Source of the DNA: a virus
Lineage: Duplodnaviria; Caudoviricetes
Direction: 5' to 3' (one strand)
IMG/VR virus record: IMGVR_UViG_3300017722_005389
Length of the DNA: 64,000 bases
Shown: piece after piece, positions 8,104 to 62,090 of the stretch
How the letters are laid out: every line of letters begins with the position of its first letter
How positions within the stretch are numbered: position 1 is the stretch's first letter
The notes under the pieces: generated by a model
The model's database searches: none
Told to the model about the DNA's origin: nothing
The model's input: the letters and a program-made list of their open reading frames with translations, nothing else
Program-made: the position numbers and the translations under genes

Positions 8104-8562
8104 TTAAAATACTTTGGCGTATCTATTTAATTTAAACAATGATAGAATATCCTTTAGAACATCATCATAATTCTGAAGGGGAATTTGTATTCTAAACGTA
8201 ACGTTACCATGCCCACTTTTCTCATTTAAGAAATTATTATCTGCTGTAGCTGAATCTTTATATTTCTCATATAAATCTCCTAACAGCCTTCCAAAAAGTT
8301 GCGACTCACCTCTATACCCCAATACATTCATATTGAATATGACACCATCTTTTTTAGCAATAAAGTATGGGCAATTAAATCTTTGACTCATTGTTCCAAC
8401 ATAAATTTGTGAAGAATCAATAGAATCACTGATTTGCAAATTTATTTGAAATACTTTCGAAAGGTCATTTGCTAATTTTCTTGCGAAATCTTTGTTTGCT
8501 TTAATGTTATCAATTTCAGTTCTTTCAGAAATTGGCATTGCTTGAAGAAATAAGTTTTCCAT
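8104..8562 (-). CDS. hypothetical protein, paralog of 7531-7983
   Basis: Tandem duplicate including the upstream element. Confidence 0.8.
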   Translation of the reverse strand: MENLFLQAMPISERTEIDNIKANKDFARKLANDLSKVFQINLQISDSIDSSQIYVGTMSQRFNCPYFIAKKDGVIFNMNVLGYRGESQLFGRLLGDLYEKYKDSATADNNFLNEKSGHGNVTFRIQIPLQNYDDVLKDILSLFKLNRYAKVF

Positions 8563-9233: not shown

Positions 9234-9334
9234 AAAATAAATTTTAATAAGTGAATTAAATATTTGACCCTACAAAGATATGCAAAGCAATTCACATTTC
9301 CAAATGAAATCCAAGATTTCTTTTGAAATAATTT

Positions 9335-10174: not shown

Positions 10175-10273
10175 AAAATAAAATTTAATAAGTGAATTAA
10201 ATATTTGACCCTACAAAGATATGCAAAGCAATTCACATTTCCAAAAGAAATGCAAAATTATTTCAAAAGAATT

Positions 10274-13238: not shown

Positions 13239-13377
13239 AAGAAAATAAAATTTAATAGTGAGTGAATTAAACGACCTTACAAAGATACAACTTACATTTG
13301 GCATTTCAAAATTTTTCTTTAGAAAAAAACAAGGGCTTCAAAACTTTTTTTGCTTTCTAATGAAGCCCTTGTATATT

Positions 13378-14121: not shown

Positions 14122-14212
14122 AATAAAGTTTTAAAATAGTGAATGAAATAAAATAATTGTCCTACAAAAATAGAAAATACTTTTGGCATTTCCAAATTTT
14201 CTTTTGAAAGAA

Positions 14213-16069: not shown

Positions 16070-16153
16070 AATTTTTAAAGTTTTATTAGTGAATAAAATA
16101 ATGTCCAACAAAAATAGAAAATACTTTTGGCATTTCAAAATTTATTTCCAACT

Positions 16154-16998: not shown

Positions 16999-17155
16999 AT
17001 CTATATAATTTAATAGCGATTAAATTGTCCTACAAAAATAGTAAACACTTTTGGCATTTCCAAATTTTCTTTTGAAATAATTTCAGTTTCAAAAGATTTT
17101 TTTTGGTGCCCCTGGATCGATCTCCAGGGGCATTGTCCAAAATCTTACATTGCCC

Positions 17156-20412: not shown

Positions 20413-20503
20413 TTTTAATAATGAGTGAATTAAATTAGAAAACAAAATTAAAAAAGAAAGTTGGCATTTCAAAATAAATTACCAACTTTCTTTTGAATGA
20501 ATT

Positions 20504-23171: not shown

Positions 23172-23530
23172 TTTTTAAAATATTTTTTGTAGCCGTAACT
23201 ACCTTTGCAAATATCTTGAGACAAAGATATAACAAGTTTTTTAATTATTCAAATTTATTTTTACCTCAAAAGAACTTTTTTAAATTCCAAATTTTTTAAC
23301 AATTTTAACTAAAAAAAATTCTGGCATTGTAATATACAACATATACGACAAATTGTATAATATACGACGTATACGACAAATTGTAATATACGAGATATAC
23401 GACAGATTATATAATATACGAAGATTTCAATCTGAGGTAGGTTTGGATTAATCCTACCTTCGAATTTACTCTCAGAGATATGCTCTATCAATTAGCTATA
23501 CAAAGGTATGCATAATAGTTGACATTTCAA
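23172..23530 (-). repeat. direct repeat copy B (copy A at 18165-18470)
   Basis: Near-identical to copy A with an expanded TATACG tract. Confidence 0.85.
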
Positions 23531-23840
23531 AATTATTTCAAAAGAAAATTTAAAATATTTTCAAAATAAAATGATCAAAAAATTTGGATATATCAAATTT
23601 CCGCCTGTGCCATTTTCTCTCAAAAGATGACTCTATATATCAAAAGAAAATAAAGTTTCTTCTGAGGGCAAATCTGAGCGTTCTGAGGGGTAAATCTGAG
23701 GCTATCTTAGGGTAAATCTGAGGCTATCTGAATCTAAACTGATAGCCAGATTTTGATATACGACATATACGACATATACGAAAAATTGATAGCCAGATTT
23801 TGATATACGACAAACTGATATAAGCATAAAAAAAAGTCCC

Positions 23841-52298: not shown

Positions 52299-52380
52299 AA
52301 AACTTCTTTTGAAAATTATATATCTCCAAAAGTAACAAAAAACTTCTTTTGGTGAAATGTAAATTTTCAAAAGAAGTTTT
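52299..52380. repeat. 19-bp perfect inverted repeat upstream of the QL array
   Basis: AAAACTTCTTTTGAAAATT (52299-317) / AATTTTCAAAAGAAGTTTT (52362-380); a third half-site lies between. Confidence 0.8.
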
Positions 52381-52417
52381 TTTTATAATGGTTAGGATGA
52401 AATATTTATGAATTTTT

Positions 52418-52449
52418 TTTTGGATTTATGGATTTTTATCTTACCTTTG
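52418..52449 (+). promoter_or_regulatory. Bacteroidota-type promoter for the QL array
   Basis: TTTG, 19 nt, TACCTTTG; a second candidate at ~52518-52548. Confidence 0.65.
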
Positions 52450-52576: not shown

Positions 52577-52705
52577 ATGGAAAATCTCAATAAAAAAATC
52601 AATAGTCAACTTCATAGGCAACGTTATGATAAACTTTATGGGCAACTTTATAGTCAACTTGATATGCAACTTAAAAATCAAATGAAGGATGAAAAAATTA
52701 AATGA
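52577..52705 (+). CDS. QL-repeat mini-protein 1 (42 aa)
   Basis: MENLNKKINSQLHRQRYDKLYGQLYSQLDMQLKNQMKDEKIK. Confidence 0.65.
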   Translation: MENLNKKINSQLHRQRYDKLYGQLYSQLDMQLKNQMKDEKIK

Positions 52706-52901
52706 TAAAATTTTTGATAGCCTTAATTGGCAATTCCGTAATCGACTTAGAAGTCAACTTCATGGTCAACTTTATAATCAACTTTATAATAAACTTGAAA
52801 GTCAACTTGAAAGTCAACTTTATGAGCAACTTAATATGCAACTTTATGGGCAACTTAATATGCAACTTAAAACTCAAATGAAGGATGGAGAATTTAAATG
52901 A
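52689..52901 (+). CDS. QL-repeat mini-protein 2
   Basis: M(E/K)NL start, QLxx repeats, 17-nt overlap. Confidence 0.75.
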   Translation: MKKLNDKIFDSLNWQFRNRLRSQLHGQLYNQLYNKLESQLESQLYEQLNMQLYGQLNMQLKTQMKDGEFK

Positions 52902-53094
52902 ACAAATTGATAGCAGTATTAGAAGTCAAATCGATTTTGAACTCTGTAGGGAACTTGAACATCAGCTCGATAGATATCTCAAAATTAAACTTCATAATAA
53001 ATCTAAAATTCTTGATCAACTCCTCAATAGTGAACTTGATTGGCGAATTGATTGGCAATTTCAAAATCAAATGGAGCATGAAAAATTTAAATAA
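52885..53094 (+). CDS. QL-repeat mini-protein 3
   Basis: Family pattern. Confidence 0.75.
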   Translation: MENLNEQIDSSIRSQIDFELCRELEHQLDRYLKIKLHNKSKILDQLLNSELDWRIDWQFQNQMEHEKFK

Positions 53095-53278
53095 AGAAGA
53101 ATGTAGTGGTCTTAATGAGCCATTACTTAACAGGCTTGAATGGGAGTTCAATAGGAAACTTGAAGTTCCGCTTGAACGTAAGCTTTATGATGAACTTAAC
53201 AGGCAAATCAAATGGGGGCTTTACAGTCAAATTCAAAGGCAACTTGAAAAACTAAAGGAACATGGAAAATCTCAATAA
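53078..53278 (+). CDS. QL-repeat mini-protein 4
   Basis: MKNLNKEEC start inside a longer ORF. Confidence 0.7.
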   Translation: MKNLNKEECSGLNEPLLNRLEWEFNRKLEVPLERKLYDELNRQIKWGLYSQIQRQLEKLKEHGKSQ

Positions 53279-53486
53279 AAAAATCAATAGTCAACTTCAT
53301 AGGCAACTTTATGATAAACTTTATGGGCAACTTTATAGTCAACTTGATAGAAAACTTCAAAATCAACTTATTAATAAACTTGATAGGCAACTTGAAAGTC
53401 AAATTTATGAGCAACTTTATGGGCAACACCGTGTTCAACTTAGAAGTCAACTTAAAAAACTAAAGGAACATGGAAAATTTAAATGA
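53262..53486 (+). CDS. QL-repeat mini-protein 5
   Basis: Family pattern. Confidence 0.75.
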   Translation: MENLNKKINSQLHRQLYDKLYGQLYSQLDRKLQNQLINKLDRQLESQIYEQLYGQHRVQLRSQLKKLKEHGKFK

Positions 53487-53685
53487 AGAGCTTGGTACAA
53501 TTCTTAATAATAAAGTTAGTCCGCTTTATAGTGAGGTTGTTAGTTACCTTCAAATTCACACAAAACTTTATTGGGAACTTGAACGTCTGCTTGATAGGGA
53601 TGTCAGGGGTTTGCTTTATAGTGGACTTAATAGACAAATTTATATACAACTTCGAAATCAAATGAAGGATGGAAAAGCTCAATAG
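53470..53685 (+). CDS. QL-repeat mini-protein 6
   Basis: Family pattern. Confidence 0.75.
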   Translation: MENLNEELGTILNNKVSPLYSEVVSYLQIHTKLYWELERLLDRDVRGLLYSGLNRQIYIQLRNQMKDGKAQ

Positions 53686-53893
53686 CAAAATATTTAATGT
53701 ATTTCATAATAAACTTCATAATAAACTTTATAGTCAACTTGGTACTCAAATTGATGGGCAACTTTATAGGCAACTTGATAATCTACTTAAAATTCAACTT
53801 TATAGTCAACTTAGTAGTCAACTTTATAGTGGACTTAATAGTCAACTTTATAATCAGCTTAAAAATCAAATGAAGGATGGAAAATTTAAATAA
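53669..53893 (+). CDS. QL-repeat mini-protein 7
   Basis: Family pattern. Confidence 0.75.
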   Translation: MEKLNSKIFNVFHNKLHNKLYSQLGTQIDGQLYRQLDNLLKIQLYSQLSSQLYSGLNSQLYNQLKNQMKDGKFK

Positions 53894-54071
53894 GAAAATC
53901 AGTAATGGAATGGCAGGTGGGCTTAGTAAGCTCAGTCTTATGCAACATTTAAATTTAGAATGGGGATTGAGTAGTATACTTATTGGTAAATTGGATGGGG
54001 TAACTGTTGGTTTTAACATGCAACTTGGTAGTCAACTTAAAAAAAATATAATAGATGGAAAATTTAATTGA
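53877..54071 (+). CDS. QL-repeat mini-protein 8 (divergent)
   Basis: Conserved ends, divergent core. Confidence 0.7.
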   Translation: MENLNKKISNGMAGGLSKLSLMQHLNLEWGLSSILIGKLDGVTVGFNMQLGSQLKKNIIDGKFN

Positions 54072-54255
54072 TAAAATCTTTTATAGTCTTGATAGTAAAC
54101 TTGATAGGCAATTTTATAGTCAACTTGGTACTCAAATTGATGGGCAACTTTATAGGCAACTTTATAGTCAACTTAGTAGTCAACTTTATAGTCAACTTAG
54201 TAGTCAACTTTATTGGCAACTTAAAACTCAAATAAAAGATGGAAAATTTAAATGA
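54055..54255 (+). CDS. QL-repeat mini-protein 9
   Basis: Family pattern. Confidence 0.75.
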   Translation: MENLIDKIFYSLDSKLDRQFYSQLGTQIDGQLYRQLYSQLSSQLYSQLSSQLYWQLKTQIKDGKFK

Positions 54256-54427
54256 AAAAATCCGTAGTGGTCTTAATGGTAAACTTGATAGTCTACTTTA
54301 TGGGCAACTTCGTAGTCAACTTTATAATCAACTTCATAGTAGACTTAATAGGCAACTCCGTAATAAACTTTATTGGCAATTTTATAGTATACTTGAAAAT
54401 CAAATGAAGGATGGAAAATTTAAATAG
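54239..54427 (+). CDS. QL-repeat mini-protein 10
   Basis: Family pattern. Confidence 0.75.
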   Translation: MENLNEKIRSGLNGKLDSLLYGQLRSQLYNQLHSRLNRQLRNKLYWQFYSILENQMKDGKFK

Positions 54428-54611
54428 GAAAATATATAGTCGACTTGATAGGCAACTTGATAGTGAATTCTTTAATGAATTTTATTGGCAATTTGAAAGG
54501 CAACTTTATAGTGAACTCGGTAATCAAATTTGTAGTCCGCTTCGTAGACAATTCTATTGGCAGATTAATTTACAACTTAAAACTCAAATGAAAGATGGAA
54601 AATTTAAATAA
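54411..54611 (+). CDS. QL-repeat mini-protein 11
   Basis: Family pattern. Confidence 0.75.
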   Translation: MENLNRKIYSRLDRQLDSEFFNEFYWQFERQLYSELGNQICSPLRRQFYWQINLQLKTQMKDGKFK

Positions 54612-54795
54612 GAAAATCCGTAGGGGTTTTAATATTAAACTTGATAGTGAACTTGACAACCAACTTTGTAGTCAAATTGATAGACAACTTTATTGGCAAC
54701 TCTGTAATCAACTTGAAAGTCAACTTTTTTGGATACTTGATGAACGACTTGGTGAACAACTTAAAACTCAAATGAAAGATGGAAAATCTCAGTAA
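54595..54795 (+). CDS. QL-repeat mini-protein 12
   Basis: Family pattern. Confidence 0.75.
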   Translation: MENLNKKIRRGFNIKLDSELDNQLCSQIDRQLYWQLCNQLESQLFWILDERLGEQLKTQMKDGKSQ

Positions 54796-55009
54796 AAATA
54801 TTAATAGTCTTAATATTGAACTTGGTAGTGAACTTAATATTCAACTTGGTACTCAAATTGATGGGCAACTTCGTAATCAATTTCTTAATCAACTTGGTAG
54901 TAAACTTCATAGTCAACTTCATAGTCAACTTCATTGGCAACTTAATAATCAAATTGGTAATCAAATTGGTAATCAACTTAAAACTCAAATGGGGAATGAA
55001 AAATTTTAA
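54779..55009 (+). CDS. QL-repeat mini-protein 13
   Basis: Family pattern. Confidence 0.75.
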   Translation: MENLSKNINSLNIELGSELNIQLGTQIDGQLRNQFLNQLGSKLHSQLHSQLHWQLNNQIGNQIGNQLKTQMGNEKF

Positions 55010-55172
55010 TGAGAAACTTCGTAATCAACTTCGTAGTGAACTTCATAATAAACTTTATAAGCAAATTGATAGAAAACTTGCTATAGCTGTTCATTTGGAA
55101 CTTGACAGTCAAATAGGTATTCAACCCTGTTTTGAAATTAATAAGCAGCTTAAACGATTAAATGGAAGATGA
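54996..55172 (+). CDS. QL-repeat mini-protein 14
   Basis: MKNFNEKLR start. Confidence 0.7.
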   Translation: MKNFNEKLRNQLRSELHNKLYKQIDRKLAIAVHLELDSQIGIQPCFEINKQLKRLNGR

Positions 55173-55417
55173 AGAAATTGAATACTGAAATCTGTAATCA
55201 ACTTAGTGAAAAGATTTGTTTTCAACTTAATAAAAAAAATTTAGATTGGCAGCTTAGTGTAGAGGTTAATGATAAATTGAATGCCCAACTTTACATTAAT
55301 TTACGCAGTCAGCTTAACGGTCGAATTAGTACACAACTTTACAGGGAGATTAATTTACTTCATTGGGAATTCAATGAACAATTTATAAATCAAATGGAAG
55401 ATGGAAAATTTAAATGA
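55169..55417 (+). CDS. QL-repeat mini-protein 15
   Basis: Family pattern. Confidence 0.75.
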   Translation: MKKLNTEICNQLSEKICFQLNKKNLDWQLSVEVNDKLNAQLYINLRSQLNGRISTQLYREINLLHWEFNEQFINQMEDGKFK

Positions 55418-55661
55418 AAAAATCCGTAGTGGTCTTAATGGTAAACTTGATAGTCTACTTTATGGGCAACTTAATTTGAAAATTAATTGGGAATTTAGAA
55501 AGCGAATTCGTAATCAACTTGAAAGTCAACTTGAAAGTCAACTTGGTAATCAACTTGAAAGTCAAATTGAAAATCAACTTTATTAGCAACTTAAAAGACA
55601 ACTTAATTGGCAGCTTAATGGACAACTTAAAACTCAAATGAAAAATGAAAAATCTCAATAG
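55401..55661 (+). pseudogene. QL-repeat mini-protein 16 with premature TAG (55584-55586)
   Basis: QLY-TAG-QL where paralogs have QLY-TGG-QL; frame continues QLKRQLNWQLNGQLKTQMKNEKSQ. Confidence 0.65.
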
Positions 55662-55857
55662 GAAAATAGATAGTAAAATTGAAAGTCAACTTGGTAGTCA
55701 ACTTTATAATCAACTTGAAATACAACTTGATAGGCAACTTGATAGTCAACTTTATTTACAAATCCGTATCCCACTTAATAGGCAATTGTATTCACGATTA
55801 TATAATCCACTTTTTAATATAATTTACAATCAAATGGAACATGAAAAATCTCAATAG
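55645..55857 (+). CDS. QL-repeat mini-protein 17
   Basis: Family pattern. Confidence 0.75.
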   Translation: MKNLNRKIDSKIESQLGSQLYNQLEIQLDRQLDSQLYLQIRIPLNRQLYSRLYNPLFNIIYNQMEHEKSQ

Positions 55858-56029
55858 TAAAATATATAGTAAAATTGAAAGTCAACTTAATAATCAAATC
55901 AATATACAACTTGATAGGCAACTTCATAGTCAACTTTATTGGCAGCTTCGTAGTCAACTTTTTAGTCAACTTCATTGGGAATTTAATGAACAATTTATAA
56001 ATCAAATGGAACATGGAAAATTTAAATAA
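55841..56029 (+). CDS. QL-repeat mini-protein 18
   Basis: Family pattern. Confidence 0.75.
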   Translation: MKNLNSKIYSKIESQLNNQINIQLDRQLHSQLYWQLRSQLFSQLHWEFNEQFINQMEHGKFK

Positions 56030-56237
56030 AAAGATTCACAATCAAATCTGGAGTCAACTCGAAAGTAAACTTGAAATCAGAAGTCGATACGATAAACAAC
56101 TTCGTGGGGAATTTGAAATTGATTGGCAACTTTGTAGTCAACTTGAGAATCAACTTGAAAGTCGACTTTACTGGGAATTAGGTATAGAAATCAATAGTCA
56201 AATTATAGCTCAAATGGAACATGGAAAATTTAAATAG
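56013..56237 (+). CDS. QL-repeat mini-protein 19
   Basis: Family pattern. Confidence 0.75.
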   Translation: MENLNKKIHNQIWSQLESKLEIRSRYDKQLRGEFEIDWQLCSQLENQLESRLYWELGIEINSQIIAQMEHGKFK

Positions 56238-56427
56238 GCAACTTTATAATCAACTTTGTGAACTTAATATTCAACTCAGTAATCAACTTGAAAGTCAACT
56301 TGAAAGTCAACTTGAAAGTCAACTTTATTGGAAACTTCGTAGTCAACTTAATAGTCAACTTCATTCGCAACTTGAAAGTTGGCTTAATGAACAACTTAAA
56401 ACTCAAATGAAAGATGAAAAATTTTAA
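56221..56427 (+). CDS. QL-repeat mini-protein 20
   Basis: Family pattern. Confidence 0.75.
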   Translation: MENLNRQLYNQLCELNIQLSNQLESQLESQLESQLYWKLRSQLNSQLHSQLESWLNEQLKTQMKDEKF

Positions 56428-56635
56428 TGACGTTATCTGTGAAAAATTATTTAATAGTCTTCGAGTGGAACTCAATAGCCAGCTTAGTAATAATCTGAAT
56501 AGTGGAGTTGTTTTTCGAATAAGTAGGGAGTTGCGAAGTATATTGATAGATAAATTTGATTTAAATTTTTATTCTGAATTGGATGAATTACTTGTTATTA
56601 ATATTGAAAATCTCAATAAAGTAGAAAAAATTTGA
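56414..56635 (+). CDS. QL-repeat mini-protein 21 (divergent)
   Basis: MKNFN start, Leu periodicity kept. Confidence 0.7.
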   Translation: MKNFNDVICEKLFNSLRVELNSQLSNNLNSGVVFRISRELRSILIDKFDLNFYSELDELLVINIENLNKVEKI

Positions 56636-56713
56636 CATTTTACGCTCTTTAGTAGAAAAAATTTGACATTTTAAAAGAAAATACAATTATTGTTGAAAAA
56701 ATTTGCATCAGAA

Positions 56714-56745
56714 TTTGGATAATTCATTTTCTCTTTCTATTTTTG
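56714..56745 (+). promoter_or_regulatory. Bacteroidota-type promoter for the DUF6745 operon
   Basis: TTTG, 20 nt, TATTTTTG. Confidence 0.65.
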
Positions 56746-56788
56746 TGACATGGTTAGCAATTGGTAAACAATTTTACTAAAGATAGAT

Positions 56789-57079
56789 ATGAAAATCAAA
56801 TGTATAAATGATGATTTTTCTAAAGTAATTGAAGAGCTTAGAAAAGAATCTAATGGAATTCCGTTAAAATTTCCTCAAAATGGGGAACTTTATACCATCA
56901 GAGAAACGTTTGATAATGATGGATTGGTAACTTCTTATCTTCTCAATGAAATATATAATCCCACATTTTATATTCCAGTGATCAAACAACGAAGGGAGTT
57001 ATCATTTGCCGAATGGAGATTTGAACATATAACTGAAAATATTGAAATAGAACAAACAGAATTAGTTAACAATTATTAA
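56789..57079 (+). CDS. hypothetical protein
   Basis: 96 aa, first gene of the internal operon. Confidence 0.7.
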   Translation: MKIKCINDDFSKVIEELRKESNGIPLKFPQNGELYTIRETFDNDGLVTSYLLNEIYNPTFYIPVIKQRRELSFAEWRFEHITENIEIEQTELVNNY

Positions 57080-57089
57080 ATTTAAAACC

Positions 57090-58274
57090 ATGAAAACTTT
57101 AGAAGATTTCACACCGAGTATTGCAGCAAAAATTCCAGAATACCAACAAAGAGCCTTAGAAGGTATTTTTGATGGTGGTCGTTACTCTAAATTCGATTTA
57201 GATAAAGCTAAGGCTTGTGTCGATTGGAATTATAAATACAGTGGAATTGAAGCCCCTAAATGGGTATTTGCAGCTGAAAATCCATTTGAGGCACAATTGA
57301 TGTATAATTACATCTTAGCTCAATTGAATGAAAATCCAAGCCTGAAGGATGGGGAAAAATATCTTGGACCATTTCTCCCAAAGGAAGAAAATATCAAGGA
57401 CTACTTGGAATACCAAGAGAACTATGTATTCACGATGAATGTCTATTCTGATTGCTATTATACTTGGTATGAGTTCATCAGAAAAGAATTTGAACTACCT
57501 TTGACAATAAATGATGACTTTCAAGAGTGTTTCCGCTTACAAAGGGAATCAGGCATTTTCAATGTTATTTGTAATGAATTGTTTGCTGTTGTTTCCAAAT
57601 ATCCTACAAAGGTTCATTGGAATTCTGAAAACCAGTTACATAACCTTTCAGGGGTAGCTGTAGAATGGTCTTCAACAGCACCATACACACAATTTGATTG
57701 CTATTATATCAATGGTAGAAATTTACCTACTGAAATTTATTTAGCGATCCAAAATAATACTTATAAAGTAGAAGACTTTTTCTCTGAAGAGAATGAAGAA
57801 ACTAAGTCTACTGCAATCATGTACATTCAAGAATTGCATGGTGATACAGCTTTAATTGATTTCTTGGGTGATAATTTGAAAGAAGTTGATACTTATATAG
57901 ACAAGAAGGCTGAAAAGTTTTTAGAAGGTACTACAAATGGTCAAAACATTGGAGTTTATACTTTGTTCGTTGGAGAAATTTTAGATGAAAAGGTTGCATA
58001 TGTCAGATGCTATTGCCCATCGACAGATAGACTTTTCTTCTTAGGAGTGGAACCTACACATAAGAACGCAAAAGATGCAATTGCTTCTTTGTATACAATT
58101 CCTAAAAAGTTAAAGCCTTATATTAAATATATCCAAAGACAGGGTGAAAGATTTTCAACTGTATTTGATGAAAAAGGTAAAACCTTGATGAGTGAATTGT
58201 CTAAAGAAGATTTGGCTGATATGATATCTATCACTGGTGATGAATATTTCAGCAAAATGCAATATGAATACTAA
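57090..58274 (+). CDS. DUF6745-like protein
   Basis: AENPFEAQ, DCYY.WYEF, YPTKVHW.SENQLHNLSGVAVEW, YYINGR.LP, NEETK, VRCYCPSTDRLFFLGV; family recalled from motifs. Confidence 0.65.
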   Translation: MKTLEDFTPSIAAKIPEYQQRALEGIFDGGRYSKFDLDKAKACVDWNYKYSGIEAPKWVFAAENPFEAQLMYNYILAQLNENPSLKDGEKYLGPFLPKEENIKDYLEYQENYVFTMNVYSDCYYTWYEFIRKEFELPLTINDDFQECFRLQRESGIFNVICNELFAVVSKYPTKVHWNSENQLHNLSGVAVEWSSTAPYTQFDCYYINGRNLPTEIYLAIQNNTYKVEDFFSEENEETKSTAIMYIQELHGDTALIDFLGDNLKEVDTYIDKKAEKFLEGTTNGQNIGVYTLFVGEILDEKVAYVRCYCPSTDRLFFLGVEPTHKNAKDAIASLYTIPKKLKPYIKYIQRQGERFSTVFDEKGKTLMSELSKEDLADMISITGDEYFSKMQYEY

Positions 58275-58304
58275 ACATTTTTTAAAATTTTAAAACAAAT
58301 TATT

Positions 58305-58532
58305 ATGTCAACAAAAATCAATGTTGCTCCAACAAGTACAGAGGGGCATTTCGTAGAAGGCGCAAATCAAGTTATCGAACTTGATGCTATCAATGAAACA
58401 TTTGCAGTAATTGGTAGTGCCAAATTAGTAACAAAAAATCACACCTCCTTAGATTTGGCTGAGGATTGTTTGATTACTTGTCAACAGGTATATAACCCTT
58501 TTGCCAAAGTATTTCAAAAAAGTCGTGACTAG
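58305..58532 (+). CDS. small His-containing (cupin-like) partner usually found next to DUF6745 genes
   Basis: EGH...L.TKNHTSL.L...QQVYNPF...RD resembles the GE.TGH.H...HEEH...QREY.P...D pattern. Confidence 0.55.
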   Translation: MSTKINVAPTSTEGHFVEGANQVIELDAINETFAVIGSAKLVTKNHTSLDLAEDCLITCQQVYNPFAKVFQKSRD

Positions 58533-58552
58533 TTTTCATGTTCTATTTTTAG

Positions 58553-58582
58553 AAGGGGATGGTAATATCATCCCCTTTTTAT
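58553..58582 (+). terminator. intrinsic terminator
   Basis: AAGGGGATG-GTAATAT-CATCCCCTT then T run. Confidence 0.75.
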
Positions 58583-58596
58583 TTAAATTATTTTAA

Positions 58597-58794
58597 ATGG
58601 AAAATCTCAATAAAAAAATTCGTAATCAAAATCAAATTTACGATAAATTACATTCTTGGATGGACAATATAATCGATATCGAACTCGGTAGGAAACTTGA
58701 TAGTAAACTATTTGATCCAAACTTTCATCACAGGATACGTATTTTACTCCATATTCAACTTGAAACTGAAATGAAACATGAAAAACCTCGTTAG
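58597..58794 (+). CDS. QL-repeat mini-protein 22
   Basis: Family pattern. Confidence 0.72.
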   Translation: MENLNKKIRNQNQIYDKLHSWMDNIIDIELGRKLDSKLFDPNFHHRIRILLHIQLETEMKHEKPR

Positions 58795-58990
58795 TAAAAT
58801 TTATTCGGAAATATATAACAAATTTCACAATGTCCTTTGTTTTGAAACAGATGGTAAATTAGCATCTAATCTTCAAAGGAACGTAGAAGAAAAACTTTAT
58901 AAGGATATTGAAGCCAAATTTCGCTGGCAGCTTTGTGGTGAAATTGACTTTCAACTTCAAAAAAACATGAAGAATGAAGAATTTAAATAA
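58778..58990 (+). CDS. QL-repeat mini-protein 23
   Basis: Family pattern, divergent. Confidence 0.72.
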   Translation: MKNLVSKIYSEIYNKFHNVLCFETDGKLASNLQRNVEEKLYKDIEAKFRWQLCGEIDFQLQKNMKNEEFK

Positions 58991-59180
58991 AAAACTATAC
59001 TCAAAGTTAAATTTTAATCTTAATGAAGATCTTGAAATTAAGATTGAACCTGGAATGAGTAATCAACTTTATAATCAACTTTATTTAGGAATAGTCATGG
59101 AAGTTGACAGGCAACTTCATTGGAATATTGATGAACAAATTGGTAGTCAACTTCAATTGAAAAAAAAAAATAGTTTCTAA
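58974..59180 (+). CDS. QL-repeat mini-protein 24
   Basis: Family pattern. Confidence 0.72.
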   Translation: MKNLNKKLYSKLNFNLNEDLEIKIEPGMSNQLYNQLYLGIVMEVDRQLHWNIDEQIGSQLQLKKKNSF

Positions 59181-59389
59181 TGAAGAATATAAATGACAAA
59201 ATAACTAAAGGGGTGTATTTCGATGAAAATCTTCAAGTGGAGATTATGAATCAATTGCAGCCATATGATATTCATGAAAGGCTTGGTAGTTTGCTTTCTC
59301 AGAAAATCAACAGGTGTCTTAAATGGCAATTAAGAAATGAGATGAAAATAGGATTAATTCGTTTTAGGAACAAAAAACGTTATGGTTGA
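59180..59389 (+). CDS. QL-repeat mini-protein 25 (divergent)
   Basis: MKNIN start. Confidence 0.68.
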   Translation: MKNINDKITKGVYFDENLQVEIMNQLQPYDIHERLGSLLSQKINRCLKWQLRNEMKIGLIRFRNKKRYG

Positions 59390-59392
59390 AAT

Positions 59393-59596
59393 ATGAAAAA
59401 TCTTAGTAAAAATATTAATTATCAAATCAGTAGACAATTTGATAGCAAACTTGGTAGTCAACTTAAAAATCAACTTGAAAGTCGACTTCGTAGTCAACTT
59501 TTTAGTCAACTTTATAATCAACTTGATAGACAACTTTATTGGCAGCTTAATGAACAACTTGAAACTCAAATGAAACATGAAAAATTTAAATTCTAA
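59393..59596 (+). CDS. QL-repeat mini-protein 26
   Basis: Family pattern. Confidence 0.75.
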   Translation: MKNLSKNINYQISRQFDSKLGSQLKNQLESRLRSQLFSQLYNQLDRQLYWQLNEQLETQMKHEKFKF

Positions 59597-59789
59597 AATA
59601 CACAGAGGTATATATATCGATTTCATTCATGAGGTTGGTGAAGAGTTGACTGAAGGTAAGATAGATAGTCATTTTCTTTTTGAGCTTGACAGATTGATTT
59701 TGTCAAATGTGCTTTTTGATGCAAGGCGTAGTTTTAGATTGATTAATTCTCAAGTGAAAAATAAAATTTCTAATGAAAAATTTAAATAA
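59577..59789 (+). CDS. QL-repeat mini-protein 27 (divergent)
   Basis: MKNLNSKI start. Confidence 0.7.
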   Translation: MKNLNSKIHRGIYIDFIHEVGEELTEGKIDSHFLFELDRLILSNVLFDARRSFRLINSQVKNKISNEKFK

Positions 59790-60009
59790 AAAACTTGATA
59801 CCTTAGAATTTAGTATAAACAGGCAAATTAACAATAAACTATGTAGACCTCTTTATAAGCATTTGTTTAAAGAGTTTGTGCCTATTTCAATTGATATTTT
59901 TTCTTTGCAAATGGAAATAAATCTTACAGATGATATTTTTTCTTTGCAAATGGAAATAAATCTTTCAAATGAAATCAAAAAAATTAAGCAACATGGAAAA
60001 TCTCAATAG
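59773..60009 (+). CDS. QL-repeat mini-protein 28
   Basis: Internal DIFSLQMEINL duplication. Confidence 0.7.
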   Translation: MKNLNKKLDTLEFSINRQINNKLCRPLYKHLFKEFVPISIDIFSLQMEINLTDDIFSLQMEINLSNEIKKIKQHGKSQ

Positions 60010-60217
60010 TAATATTGGTAGGCAACTTCTTAGTCAACTCGGTAGTCAACTTAAAGTTGCTCTTGAAATGCAACTTCTTAGTCCACTTTACAGTCAACTC
60101 GGTAATCAACTTGAAAGTCAACTTGAAAGTCAACTTGGTAATCAACTTTTTTGGATACTTGATGAACGACTTGGTGAACAACTTAAAACTCAAATGGAAC
60201 ATGGAAAATATCAGTAA
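59993..60217 (+). CDS. QL-repeat mini-protein 29
   Basis: MENLNSNIG start. Confidence 0.75.
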   Translation: MENLNSNIGRQLLSQLGSQLKVALEMQLLSPLYSQLGNQLESQLESQLGNQLFWILDERLGEQLKTQMEHGKYQ

Positions 60218-60425
60218 CGATATTAATAGTGAACTTAATAGCCAAATTCATATACGACTCCGTAGTCAACTCGGTAGTCAACTTAAAGTTGCTCGTGAAA
60301 TGCAACTTCTTAGTCCACTTTACAGTCAACTCGGTAATCAACTTGATAGGCAACTTTATAACCAATTTAGTACTCAAATTGATGGGTAACTTCAAAATCA
60401 ATTGAAACATGGAAAATCTCAGTAA
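60201..60425 (+). pseudogene. QL-repeat mini-protein 30 with premature TAA (60387-60389)
   Basis: GGG-TAA-CTT where paralogs have GGG-CAA-CTT; frame continues LQNQLKHGKSQ. Confidence 0.6.
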
Positions 60426-60621
60426 AGATATTAATAGTGAAATTTATAGTCAATTAAATAAACCAATCAGTAGTCAACTCGGTAGTCGACTTAAAGTTGC
60501 TTATGAAATGCAACTTCTTAGTCCACTTTGTATTCAACTCACTCTTCAATTTAATTTGGGACTTTGCAGTCAACTTGATAGGCAACTTAAAAATAAAATG
60601 AAAAATGGAAAATTTCAGTAA
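60409..60621 (+). CDS. QL-repeat mini-protein 31
   Basis: Family pattern. Confidence 0.75.
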   Translation: MENLSKDINSEIYSQLNKPISSQLGSRLKVAYEMQLLSPLCIQLTLQFNLGLCSQLDRQLKNKMKNGKFQ

Positions 60622-60670
60622 AAAGATTAGGTAAATTTTAACTCAAATGAAGCATGGAAATTTTAAATAA
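60605..60670 (+). pseudogene. collapsed relic of a QL unit
   Basis: MENFSKKIR* directly followed by the TQMKHGNFK* end; core deleted. Confidence 0.6.
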
Positions 60671-60851
60671 GGAAATTTGTAATCAACTTGAAATAAAAAT
60701 TAGTCATAAGTTACAAAATCAGCTTTACAATCGATTTGACATTCAAATGAAAGATATATTTATTAGCCATTTTGATATTGCGTTTTTTCGGCAGTTATAT
60801 CGGAATCTTGACAGGCAGAGTTATTGGTTGCTGAAGAAAAAGTTGAAATAA
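60654..60851 (+). CDS. QL-repeat mini-protein 32
   Basis: Family pattern. Confidence 0.72.
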   Translation: MEILNKEICNQLEIKISHKLQNQLYNRFDIQMKDIFISHFDIAFFRQLYRNLDRQSYWLLKKKLK

Positions 60852-60911
60852 ATTTCTTTTTTTGAAATATTATTTTTACCTTTGAGGAAAATAGTTTAAT
60901 TCTAATGGAAC

Positions 60912-61157
60912 ATGGAAAATATTAGTAAAAAGATAAATAGTAAACCTGATAGTCAACTTTTTTGGCAACTTGAAAGTCAACTTTATAATCAACTCCATAA
61001 TCAACTCCATAATCAACTTCAACAACTTGATAGGCAACTTGGTAATCAACTTGAAAGTCAACTTTATTGGGTACTTCTTAGTCCACTTTACAGTCAACTT
61101 CGTAGTCAACTTAGTGAACAACTCAAAACTCAAATGGAAGATGGAAAATCTCAGTAG
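60912..61157 (+). CDS. QL-repeat mini-protein 33
   Basis: Family pattern. Confidence 0.75.
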   Translation: MENISKKINSKPDSQLFWQLESQLYNQLHNQLHNQLQQLDRQLGNQLESQLYWVLLSPLYSQLRSQLSEQLKTQMEDGKSQ

Positions 61158-61335
61158 AAAGATACATAGTTCCCAATTTGTTAAAATTCATAGGGAGCTT
61201 AATGGAGAACTTGATTGGAGATTTAGTCTTAAAGTGCAAAATTATATCACCGATGAATTACAAATGAGAGCTGTCAAAATTATATTTGGTTTATTGAATA
61301 TACAACTTTTGAAGGAACTTAAAAAGAAAAAATGA
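61141..61335 (+). CDS. QL-repeat mini-protein 34
   Basis: MENLSRKIH start. Confidence 0.7.
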   Translation: MENLSRKIHSSQFVKIHRELNGELDWRFSLKVQNYITDELQMRAVKIIFGLLNIQLLKELKKKK

Positions 61336-61544
61336 AAAATCTTAATAATGAAATTCGTAATAAAGCCCATGAAAAACTTTACGGTAAACTCTATAGTGAA
61401 CTTTATAAGCAACTAAATTGGCAGCTCACTAAAACACTCTATACTCAATTGATGCAGCCAATTGAAAATTTATATACTGAAGATTTTTATTGGCAACTTT
61501 ATGGGCAACTTGAAAATCAAATGGAAGATGGAAAACCTCAATAG
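61332..61544 (+). CDS. QL-repeat mini-protein 35
   Basis: Family pattern. Confidence 0.75.
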   Translation: MKNLNNEIRNKAHEKLYGKLYSELYKQLNWQLTKTLYTQLMQPIENLYTEDFYWQLYGQLENQMEDGKPQ

Positions 61545-61734
61545 AAAAATTAGTAATAAACTTGATATTCAAATTGAACTTAATGAGGAAATCGATGTAG
61601 AACTTGATAATCAACTTGATAATCAATTTTATAGTCAAATTGATAGGAAACTTTATTGGCAACTCCGTAGTCAACTTAGTAGTCAACTTCACAGGCAACT
61701 TAAAATTCAAATAAAACATGGAAAATCTCAATAG
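61528..61734 (+). CDS. QL-repeat mini-protein 36
   Basis: MENLNRKIS start. Confidence 0.75.
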   Translation: MENLNRKISNKLDIQIELNEEIDVELDNQLDNQFYSQIDRKLYWQLRSQLSSQLHRQLKIQIKHGKSQ

Positions 61735-61906
61735 AAATATTAATTATCAAATCAGTAGACAATTTGATAGCAAAATTGATAATCAACTTAAATATCAACT
61801 TTATAGCCAACTTCGTAGTCAATTTCATAGTAGACTTAATACACAACTTTTTTGGCAACTTCGCAGTCAACTTAAAATTCAAATGGAACATGGAAAATCT
61901 CAATAG
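61718..61906 (+). CDS. QL-repeat mini-protein 37
   Basis: Family pattern. Confidence 0.75.
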   Translation: MENLNRNINYQISRQFDSKIDNQLKYQLYSQLRSQFHSRLNTQLFWQLRSQLKIQMEHGKSQ

Positions 61907-62090
61907 AAAAATTCGTAATAGTATTCATTTGAAATTTAATAATAGTGTTGAGAGGGTAAATTATCAATTCGATAGTAAATTACATAGTGAACTCCGTATG
62001 GAATTTAACAATCCAATTTATAATCAAATCAATTGGGAGTTTCATAGCAAACTTAATAATCAAATTTCAACCATTAGACAATCTCATTAG
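61890..62090 (+). CDS. QL-repeat mini-protein 38
   Basis: MENLNRKIR start. Confidence 0.7.
   Translation: MENLNRKIRNSIHLKFNNSVERVNYQFDSKLHSELRMEFNNPIYNQINWEFHSKLNNQISTIRQSH

What the first reader, a model, noticed from the sequence alone, without database searches (positions are those of the whole stretch)
52577..62090. Array of 38 paralogous QLxx-repeat mini-genes wrapped around a DUF6745-like operon: candidate new system
Seen: 21 + 17 ORFs of about 42-86 codons with fixed ends (M(E/K)NL(N/S)..I ... QL(K/E).QM..GK(F/S)) and a hypervariable core of 4-residue QLxx repeats (12-nt CAACTT period). Divergent members keep the Leu rhythm with other codons, which argues for coding function. In the middle sits a promoter-to-terminator unit: 96-aa ORF, DUF6745-like gene, small His partner. 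Recalled, not verified here: many DUF6745 proteins carry an internal QVxxQVxxQL repeat tract between the SP motif and the D..W..FY motif. This copy has no such tract at that position (ENPFEAQ...DCYYTWYEF). Inferred: the variable repeat helix has been externalised into a library of trans-acting peptides that pair with one core protein, or that act as decoys or specificity modules against host defence sensors.
Basis: partly seen in the sequence, partly recalled or inferred. Interest (0 to 1): 0.92.

Follow-up and report, generated by a model that had tools for sequence, protein, structure and literature searches.

The report
Detached repeat mini-genes around DUF6745 gene
A large uncultured phage carries 38 small genes, each encoding a helix-forming four-residue repeat that related phages build into a single protein of unknown function (DUF6745); here that protein has lost the repeat. 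No paper in the held library mentions DUF6745, although the same split layout recurs in other phage lineages.

Summary
In detail: 21 + 17 co-directional mini-ORFs of 42-82 codons flank a 96-aa gene, a 394-aa DUF6745-family gene and a 75-aa partner.

**The mini-ORFs behave as coding genes**
- The start ATG is kept at 106 of 106 junctions in four strains.
- Orthologous units show 1 new stop against about 30 expected under neutrality.
- The every-fourth-residue hydrophobic rhythm is under purifying selection.
- The other three positions drift freely (dN/dS about 0.8). The neighbouring 394-aa gene has dN/dS 0.05.

**Link to DUF6745**
- Fused homologues carry the same Ser-Gln-Leu-x tract, on the same 12-nt unit, exactly where the window's copy has none.
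- Free-standing capped mini-genes turned up only beside tract-less DUF6745 genes: 7 of 12 tract-less loci against 0 of 27 tract-bearing IMG/VR loci. They use three different repeat types.

So "the tract has been externalised" is supported.

The function is unknown. The nearest published analogue is the tunable tetrapeptide repeat of mycobacteriophage Tweety gp54, which is not a homologue. This scan has noted the same phenomenon before on other DNA. A search of the held paper library found no paper that mentions DUF6745.

The parts
52419..52449 (+). Bacteroidota-type promoter-like motif (TTTG-N-TAnnTTTG), 128 nt upstream of the first mini-gene
   Evidence: the motif occurs 24 times in the window against 5.6 expected, and no shuffle of 100 reached 24. 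This is one of only two + strand hits in the region. A perfect AT-rich inverted repeat followed by a T-run lies just upstream at about 52334-52385 (read).
52577..56635 (+). Array 1: 21 translationally coupled mini-genes (42-82 codons) encoding N-cap, (x-Q-L-x)n core and basic C-cap
56714..56745 (+). Promoter-like motif 44 nt upstream of the 96-aa gene
56789..57079 (+). 96-aa gene of unknown function. It is conserved in strains of this phage but not next to DUF6745 genes elsewhere
   Evidence: dN/dS 0.12-0.24; no tblastn match in six other DUF6745 loci
57090..58274 (+). 394-aa tract-less DUF6745-family protein (the constant core)
   Evidence: 422 homologues, many tagged PF20530; 21 of 46 aligned homologues hit PF20530. 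AF2 model with pLDDT 89; best fold matches are DUF6745 proteins (E 1e-12 and 9e-14); dN/dS 0.05-0.06 between strains.
58305..58532 (+). 75-aa conserved partner protein of DUF6745
   Evidence: found immediately downstream of the DUF6745 gene in six other loci at 49-88% identity. Also present in L036, L040, L041, L042, L045 and L050.
58551..58579 (+). Terminator-like hairpin (13 pairs, then a T-run) closing the central operon, 18 nt before array 2
58597..62090 (+). Array 2: 17 mini-genes of the same family plus a 9-codon remnant (60605-60634). On average it is more diverged than array 1, and no consensus promoter of its own was found

Best explanation
The 38 ORFs are real, translated mini-protein genes. 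They are the detached and multiplied form of the variable tetrapeptide-repeat element that most DUF6745 proteins carry between their N- and C-terminal parts. AlphaFold2, at low confidence, predicts that element as an amphipathic alpha-helical hairpin.

In this phage lineage the core gene has lost the tract and is kept almost invariant, together with its small partner. About 40 hairpin-only proteins are encoded in two co-directional, translationally coupled arrays on either side of it. Each has a conserved N-cap (MENLNKKI) and a basic C-cap (QMKDGKFK).

Selection keeps each unit's start codon, its open frame and its hydrophobic residue every fourth position. The other three positions drift. Unit number and content change between near-identical strains through unequal crossing-over and exchange of segments.

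Inferred, not shown: the phage makes many surface variants of the repeat element at once, where relatives retune a single built-in tract by slippage. These variants would serve the same accessory function as the DUF6745-partner module. By analogy with Tweety gp54, and because the locus sits in a region of small early-type genes, that function is most likely in phage-host conflict (counter-defence or host takeover). Whether the peptides dock on the core protein is open.
For: **Shown: coding constraint**
- ATG is kept at 106 of 106 junction motifs in four strains.
- The overlapping upstream codon is always NAT and never the synonymous NAC, in 36 of 36 cases.
- 550 differences in 47 orthologous unit pairs created 1 in-frame stop against 29.6 expected.
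- Rhythm positions change at half the rate of the others. Second-codon-position changes are depleted (8, against 30 at position 1), and about 39 of 47 replacements stay hydrophobic.
- Lag-4 periodicity persists in units that have lost the QL words.

**Shown: same element as the DUF6745 tract**
- Fused homologues hold (SQLx)n at the exact place where the window copy has none.
- The 12-nt unit has the same design: AGT-CAA-CTT-NRT here, AGT-CAG-CTT-NRT in L005 and TCA-CAG-CTT-NRT in L001.
- The mini-gene profile matches these tracts in hundreds of proteins of 340-560 aa.

**Shown: association with tract loss**
- Free-standing capped mini-genes occur with tract-less DUF6745 genes in three repeat types:
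  - the window lineage (SQLx);
  - L040, L041 and L042 (xSVx; at least 40 units in L041), and L045 and L047 (same profile);
  - L050 (xQVx).
- They occur in 0 of 27 tract-bearing IMG/VR loci.
- Two long tract-bearing records hold no QL-type mini-gene (the one type searched) outside the gene itself.
- Fisher p = 5e-5 by locus and about 0.02 by clade.

**Shown: constant core, variable arrays**
- The 394-aa gene has dN/dS 0.05 and is 99% identical between strains.
- The mini-genes have dN about 25 times higher at a similar dS.
- The upstream array has 21, 30, about 28-32 and 21 units in four strains.
- Identical stretches of 36-52 nt are shared between distant units, including across the operon.

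**Shown: expression signals**
- A promoter motif lies before array 1.
- Stop/start overlaps are typical of coupled translation here, as are ATGA overlaps in the L041 array.

**Predicted**
- The tract of fused P0012 folds as a helical hairpin, H64-134 and H140-195, projecting from the core.
Against: - There is no direct evidence of transcription, translation or binding.
- dN/dS of about 0.8 with no third-position excess also fits weakly constrained or decaying genes. Several units are truncated or have lost their caps.
- Array 2 begins 18 nt after a strong terminator-like hairpin and no consensus promoter was found for it.
- The closest tract-less relatives (L002-L004), and also L036, L063 and L065, show no clear mini-genes in the DNA available. 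The core can therefore exist without them, or they lie elsewhere.
- The helical-hairpin model has low confidence, pLDDT 43-69.
- Similarity between mini-genes and tracts rests mainly on a low-complexity repeat.
- The QL-type and SV-type mini-gene families show no profile similarity, so common descent of the caps is not shown.
Confidence: 0.5

Rival explanations
1. The mini-proteins are real and descend from the DUF6745 tract, but they act on their own, for example as self-associating amphipathic helices, scaffolds or sponges. They do not touch the core protein. The linkage reflects only where they arose by duplication.
For: In the L045 record most mini-genes lie about 45 kb from the DUF6745 gene. 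The tract-less core has a well-ordered connection (pLDDT 86-95) where the tract would be, with no obvious empty docking site. The closest tract-less relatives lack detectable mini-genes.
Against: Mini-genes were found only in genomes whose DUF6745 gene lacks the tract. That points to functional replacement, not an unrelated role. In L041 and L042 mini-genes sit between the core gene and its partner.
Confidence: 0.2
2. The arrays are a runaway tandem amplification of a gene fragment with little or no present function. They are tolerated, sloppily translated and slowly decaying.
For: dN/dS is 0.82 with no codon-position bias outside the rhythm positions. Some units are truncated or have lost caps, and one is a 9-codon remnant. 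Copy number differs freely between strains.
Against: There is 1 new stop against about 30 expected. Start codons are kept 106 of 106 times. The hydrophobic rhythm is under purifying selection. Highly diverged units are still full-length and 90-99% conserved as orthologues between strains. The same layout evolved with other repeat types in other lineages.
Confidence: 0.15
3. The units are silent donor cassettes, as with pilS or vls. They recombine into the DUF6745 gene to give it a new tract and are not meant to be translated themselves.
For: The arrays flank an expression locus on both sides. Units are stop-free inside and exchange segments with one another. Relatives do carry a tract at the matching site.
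Against: Every unit has its own ATG and stop in a conserved coupled junction, and successive units are in different frames. The core gene is 394 aa without a tract in every strain seen and 99% identical between them. No cap-like sequence flanks the insertion point. The apparent KDG match is the ordinary family linker.
Confidence: 0.07
4. The functional entity is the DNA or RNA, for example a phased 12-bp protein-binding array, an origin or a structured RNA, and the ORFs are incidental.
For: The 12-nt period is close to a helical repeat. Silent sites in fused tracts are perfectly uniform. Several frames are open in the repeat-rich units.
Against: In diverged units only the QL frame is open. Constraint follows codon positions and amino-acid class. 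Other lineages keep the protein design with unrelated DNA repeats. There is no Rfam match.
Confidence: 0.05

Closest known systems
Central tetrapeptide tract of DUF6745 (Pfam PF20530 / phrog_31813) phage and prophage proteins, e.g. Microcystis phage Ma-LMM01 DUF6745 protein, Sphingobacterium sp. ML3W OHD16_06870, Niabella sp. LL912_00715
   Same: The core gene is a family member by sequence and by fold and has the conserved small partner. The mini-genes encode the same x-Q-L-x repeat on the same 12-nt unit design as the tracts of fused relatives.
   Different: Here the tract is missing from the core. It exists instead as about 38 separate genes with their own starts, stops and conserved caps. 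No function is known for the family, and the held paper library has no paper that mentions DUF6745.
Mycobacteriophage Tweety gp54 (with Che8 gp57 and PMC gp51): tetrapeptide-repeat, mutationally tunable counter-defence protein (PMC9262239; PMC2884959)
   Same: The repeat unit is 12 bp. [quoted passage not shown] Repeat number changes between isolates. The gene sits among early or accessory genes. Changing the repeat number retunes activity against the Phrann gp29/gp30 defence.
   Different: It is not homologous to DUF6745 (hhalign probability 0.05). Its repeat is Ala-Ala-x-x inside one polypeptide. No free-standing copies are mentioned in the two Tweety papers read here (PMC9262239, PMC2884959). 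The function of the present locus is untested.
Gene 'accordions' of poxviruses (K3L amplification; recalled from memory, Elde et al. 2012)
   Same: A host-interaction gene is amplified in tandem, and copy number varies between closely related genomes. This raises both dosage and mutational supply.
   Different: Accordions are transient and the copies are near-identical. Here the units have diverged to 25-55% identity and have stable orthologues between strains.
Silent cassette arrays for antigenic variation (Neisseria pilS/pilE, Borrelia vls; recalled from memory)
   Same: Many partial paralogues flank one expressed locus, and segments are exchanged among units.
   Different: The units here have start and stop codons and coupled junctions. 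The expressed gene never carries a cassette.

Membership tests
DUF6745 (PF20530), applied to the 394-aa gene | Match to the Pfam model above its gathering score | tested here: not met
   12.9 bits, E 0.068, against a cut-off of 27. However, 21 of 46 aligned homologues do match (best E 8.6e-11).
DUF6745 (PF20530), applied to the 394-aa gene | Full-length sequence homology to proteins that carry the domain | tested here: met
   PF20530-tagged proteins at E 1e-120 with 45-48% identity over 100% of the query; the ESM Atlas nearest clusters are all DUF6745 (score 0.96).
DUF6745 (PF20530), applied to the 394-aa gene | Same fold as family members | tested here: met
   the best AFDB cluster matches include named DUF6745 proteins (from E 2.9e-12; the unnamed top hit is 1.1e-12); the Ma-LMM01 DUF6745 protein at E 8.7e-14. 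No other fold matched in PDB.
DUF6745 (PF20530), applied to the 394-aa gene | Conserved small partner gene immediately downstream | tested here: met
   the 75-aa partner is found in six other loci at 49-88% identity.
DUF6745 (PF20530), applied to the 394-aa gene | Central tetrapeptide-repeat tract (typical of the family, not universal) | tested here: not met
   no tract in the window copy, nor in L002-4, L036, L040-42, L045, L047 or L050.
Tweety gp54-type tunable tetrapeptide-repeat protein | Homology to gp54 | tested here: not met
   hhalign probability 0.05 between the DUF6745 profile and gp54 (L053:5645-6766).
Tweety gp54-type tunable tetrapeptide-repeat protein | 12-bp unit with invariant silent sites and variation at first and second codon positions | tested here: met
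   met in fused relatives (100% uniform Ser, Gln and Leu codons; variable NRT codon). The mini-genes keep the design in degraded form (CTT is 68% of Leu codons, against 21% in control genes).
Tweety gp54-type tunable tetrapeptide-repeat protein | Repeat embedded between unique N- and C-terminal domains of one protein | tested here: not met
   the units are free-standing with only 8-12-residue caps.
Tweety gp54-type tunable tetrapeptide-repeat protein | Counter-defence activity that depends on repeat number | not testable with these tools
   Needs a cultured host and phage.
Silent cassette / gene-conversion system (pilS, vls type) | Donor copies lack start codons and promoters, and the expressed gene carries a copy of a cassette | tested here: not met
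   ATG at 106 of 106 junctions, and a promoter motif before array 1; the core gene has no tract in any strain.
Diversity-generating retroelement target | Adenine-specific differences between a template repeat and a variable repeat, and a nearby reverse transcriptase | tested here: not met
   the A's of AGT and CAG/CAA are invariant, while the variable codon is NRT. That pattern is not adenine-directed. A reverse transcriptase was not searched for specifically.

The most novel reading that the evidence does not exclude
This is a split, combinatorial system. One invariant core (the tract-less DUF6745 protein plus its 75-aa partner) is armed in trans by any of about 40 interchangeable helical-hairpin peptides, which dock through their conserved caps. 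A single phage then expresses a whole repertoire of specificities against host factors or defences at once, and the repertoire is renewed by recombination within the arrays.
Probability: 0.15. Interest if true: 0.9.

Novelty: new variant of a known kind. Interest (0 to 1): 0.68.

Why it matters
DUF6745 proteins with fast-changing tetrapeptide tracts are widespread in phages and prophages. The mini-gene profile alone finds 858 tract-bearing cluster representatives. None has been studied, and the held paper library has no paper that mentions the family.

This locus separates the family's two parts: a constant core under strong purifying selection, and a variable element present as dozens of separately encoded proteins. 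That makes the role of the repeat testable on its own. It also shows that the repeat, not only its length as a spacer, is what selection maintains.

If the repeat element is a specificity determinant in phage-host conflict, as repeat number is in Tweety gp54, these arrays would be a way for a virus to carry a standing library of variants.

Tried and rejected
**Searches that found nothing**
- DNA and protein searches of the GenBank phage collection gave no match.
- The PDB sequence search, Foldseek on PDB and Swiss-Prot AFDB and VIA-align on the wide PDB set (best Z 5.5 on a beta-meander only) gave no functional fold lead for the core protein.
- PADLOC gave no hit for any window protein. Rfam gave nothing credible.
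- A scan of bacterial and archaeal genome contigs found only 10 MAG loci. Most are cut at the tract, none has mini-genes, and none comes from a cultured host.

- Complex prediction and the look-up of sequencing runs. Binding and expression therefore stay untested.

**Ideas considered and dropped**
- Common ancestry of the QL-type and SV-type mini-gene families. hhalign finds no similarity. The caps look alike only as a short motif, (N/K)L(N/G)K(K/S)(I/F).
- The core's SLKDGEKY as a remnant of the mini-gene C-cap MKDGKFK. This segment aligns with the ordinary linker of tract-less relatives (ELIDRDTF, SLLEKETY), so the likeness is probably chance.
- A polyprotein made by +1 frameshifting at each junction. 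The invariant ATG, and a second junction type (…CATGGAAAATCTCAATAG) that is not slippery, argue against it.
- DGR mutagenesis. The pattern of variable bases does not fit.
- The 96-aa gene as part of the conserved module. It is not found beside DUF6745 genes elsewhere.

Full report
**1. What is there**

The window is 30% G+C and has many small co-directional genes. It carries helicases, an HNH endonuclease and an anti-restriction-like gene. It has no close relative in the GenBank phage collection. The identical 394-aa protein is on record on contigs of up to 271,677 bp. The Bacteroidota promoter consensus TTTG-N17-21-TAnnTTTG occurs 24 times against 5.6 expected. I therefore read the window as part of a large uncultured phage of a Bacteroidota host, seen mainly in JGI and ENA metagenome assemblies.

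Between 52577 and 62090, all on the + strand, lie the following:
- 21 mini-ORFs;
- a three-gene unit of 96 aa, 394 aa and 75 aa;
- 17 more mini-ORFs and one 9-codon remnant.

The units are 42-82 codons long. They start M(E/K)NL(N/S)xKI and usually end QLKxQMK(D/H)GK(F/S)(K/Q). At 25 of 36 junctions the stop of one unit lies 17 nt inside the next, so that …GATGGAAAATTTAAATAA reads as D-G-K-F-K-stop in one frame and M-E-N-L-N in the next. Each unit is therefore shifted by one frame. The cores are built on a 12-nt period, AGT-CAA-CTT-NRT, which encodes S-Q-L-x.

**2. Are they genes?**

Nine other contigs carry the same locus in closely related strains (L007-L015). I compared the window with three of them, L007, L008 and L010.

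- Control genes have dN/dS of 0.04-0.36 at dS 0.02-0.48, mostly 0.03-0.15. The 394-aa gene has dN/dS 0.05.
- Orthologous mini-ORF pairs have dS 0.07 but dN/dS 0.82, with no excess of third-position changes. Taken alone, that looks neutral.
- The 550 differences in 47 ortholog pairs created only one in-frame stop, where 29.6 are expected from random substitution.
- The start ATG is present at all 106 junction motifs in four strains. The overlapping upstream codon is always NAT and never the synonymous NAC.
- Residues on the every-fourth hydrophobic rhythm change at half the rate of the rest. They show a strong deficit of second-position changes (8, against 30 at position 1), and about 39 of 47 replacements stay hydrophobic.
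- The lag-4 rhythm is significant in nearly every unit, including units with only 1-3 QL dipeptides. Those diverged units are open only in this frame and are 90-99% conserved as positional orthologues between strains.

I conclude that the units are translated. Selection keeps an open frame, a start codon and an amphipathic period-4 pattern, and lets the other three positions drift.

**3. Relation to the central gene**

The 394-aa protein misses the Pfam gathering score for DUF6745. The other evidence places it in the family:
- It has 422 homologues, many tagged PF20530.
- 21 of 46 aligned homologues hit the Pfam model.
- Its ESM Atlas neighbours are all DUF6745.
- Its confident AF2 model (pLDDT 89) matches only DUF6745 proteins: AFDB clusters from E 1.1e-12, and the Microcystis phage Ma-LMM01 protein at 8.7e-14.
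- No solved structure resembles it.

Longer homologues of 460-590 aa carry a run of (S-Q-L-x)n between the ENPxExQ helix and the YLFTxNxYS motif, exactly where the window copy has none. Their DNA units are AGT-CAG-CTT-NRT or TCA-CAG-CTT-NRT, with perfectly uniform silent sites. Other relatives have SELx, SSLx, xNVx, xQVx or LRxN at the same place.

AF2 predicts the tract of P0012 as a two-helix hairpin that continues a core helix, at low confidence (pLDDT 43-69). A profile of the 38 units matches these tracts. It finds 858 cluster representatives in 1.84 billion proteins. Most of the best 150 listed are fused proteins of 340-560 aa. The only full-length capped matches belong to this phage lineage.

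The 75-aa gene is the family's conserved partner. The 96-aa gene is not.

**4. Does tract loss go with free-standing units?**

I fetched 41 IMG/VR loci that encode relatives of the core and scanned them for 12-nt-periodic DNA and for small ORFs with lag-4 identity.

- None of the 27 tract-bearing loci has a free-standing unit.
- In two long tract-bearing records, of 82 kb and of 148 kb (90% complete), every match to the QL-type mini-gene profile lies inside the DUF6745 gene itself. Only the QL type was searched in these records.
- Among tract-less loci:
  - L041 has the core, one mini-gene, the partner and then at least 40 mini-genes of the form MILGKSIKDKV-(xSVx)n-SIPKIKL, joined by ATGA overlaps.
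  - L040 and L042 have 2 and at least 5.
  - L045 has one adjacent unit and at least 10 more about 45 kb away.
  - L047 has units next to the gene and at the contig start.
  - L050 has two (xQVx)n units.
- By locus this is 7 of 12 against 0 of 27 (p = 5e-5). At a conservative clade level it is about p = 0.02.

There are exceptions. L002-L004, the closest relatives of the window's core at 71% identity, show none, but they are short fragments of a provirus. L036 has only doubtful degenerate candidates. L063 and L065 also show none.

The QL and SV mini-gene families are not detectably homologous. Either detachment happened more than once or the families have diverged beyond recognition.

**5. Dynamics**

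- The upstream array has 21 units in the window, 30 in L007, about 28-32 in L008 and 21 in L010.
- Repeat-rich units find only 60-85% matches in other strains, while diverged anchor units keep their order.
- Exact stretches of 36-52 nt are shared between non-adjacent units, including between the two arrays.
- The core operon between the arrays is 99% identical among strains.

**6. Expression signals**

A host-type promoter motif lies 128 nt before array 1, and another lies 44 nt before the 96-aa gene. A 13-pair hairpin with a T-run follows the partner gene. Array 2 starts 18 nt after that hairpin, and no consensus promoter was found for it. Its expression would need read-through or an unrecognised promoter.

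**7. Mechanism**

Shown:
- a family of translated amphipathic repeat mini-proteins;
- the same repeat element as the DUF6745 tract;
- linkage to a tract-less, highly conserved core and its partner;
- rapid turnover of the arrays.

Inferred: the detached units replace the built-in tract, and give many variants at once where relatives have one tunable tract.

By analogy only: a role in counter-defence. The nearest studied case is Tweety gp54. There, changes in the number of Ala-Ala-x-x repeats (a 12-bp unit with invariant silent sites) let the phage escape the Phrann gp29/gp30 defence (PMC9262239, PMC2884959). gp54 is unrelated to DUF6745.

Binding of the peptides to the core could not be tested.

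**8. Novelty**

The held paper library has no paper that mentions DUF6745.

Earlier notes of this scan describe fused tracts in many genomes, and free-standing repeat mini-genes in a few others. The phenomenon is therefore not new to the scan.

What this window adds:
- the largest QL-type case;
- strain-level selection tests;
- an independent test of the link between tract loss and mini-genes.

I class it as a new variant of a known kind, namely hypervariable tetrapeptide-repeat phage accessory proteins.

Noticed in passing
window, - strand: 13280-13310, 14165-14196, 16109-16139, 17033-17064, 20443-20473, 23501-23531 and others: A family of near-identical extended promoters (TTTG(G)AAATGCCAA...TAnnTTTG) precedes many leftward small genes. 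It is probably one temporal class of phage promoters of Bacteroidota type. The core motif is enriched 24 against 5.6 expected.
   Followed up: partly
L041:10635-18848 (IMGVR_UViG_3300023242_000006): A second, unrelated-looking array has at least 40 mini-genes of the form MILGKSIKDKV-(xSVx)n-SIPKIKL, following a tract-less DUF6745 gene and its partner. One mini-gene sits between the core and the partner.
   Followed up: partly
W, L041 and L050 mini-gene N-termini: Three mini-gene families with different repeats share a short N-cap pattern, (N/K)L(N/G)K(K/S)(I/F): MENLNKKI, MKLGKSI and MNLGKKF. Profile comparison shows no significant similarity, so this may be convergence or a docking motif.
   Followed up: partly
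and loci (e.g. L017, L019, L020, L023, L026-L029, L056-L061): Many metagenome contigs that encode DUF6745 end inside or at the repeat tract. Assemblies systematically break there, and databases under-represent full-length fused proteins.
   Followed up: no
window:34289-35299 (+): A 336-aa protein has an internally duplicated domain of about 60 aa (QGGQGDPYQYK...). The copies are separated by six TKPE repeats and followed by GVKDNT repeats. It is unrelated to the QL family.
   Followed up: no
window:7531-7983 and 8104-8562 (-): Two adjacent paralogous genes of 150 and 152 aa both start MENLFLQAM. Identical promoter-like sequences lie at 9273-9304 and 10214-10245, which suggests further local duplications in this genome.
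   Followed up: no
window:52334-52385: A perfect AT-rich 13-bp inverted repeat followed by a T-run lies after the 208-aa endolysin-like gene. It is probably a terminator that the G+C-based scan missed, and it was the cause of a spurious mir-2062 Rfam hit.
   Followed up: no
L044:3248-3922: A 224-aa protein in a phage with a tract-bearing DUF6745 gene has its own 12-nt-periodic tract (A-N-A-A type) after an unrelated N-terminal domain. Tetrapeptide arrays are therefore not confined to DUF6745.
   Followed up: no
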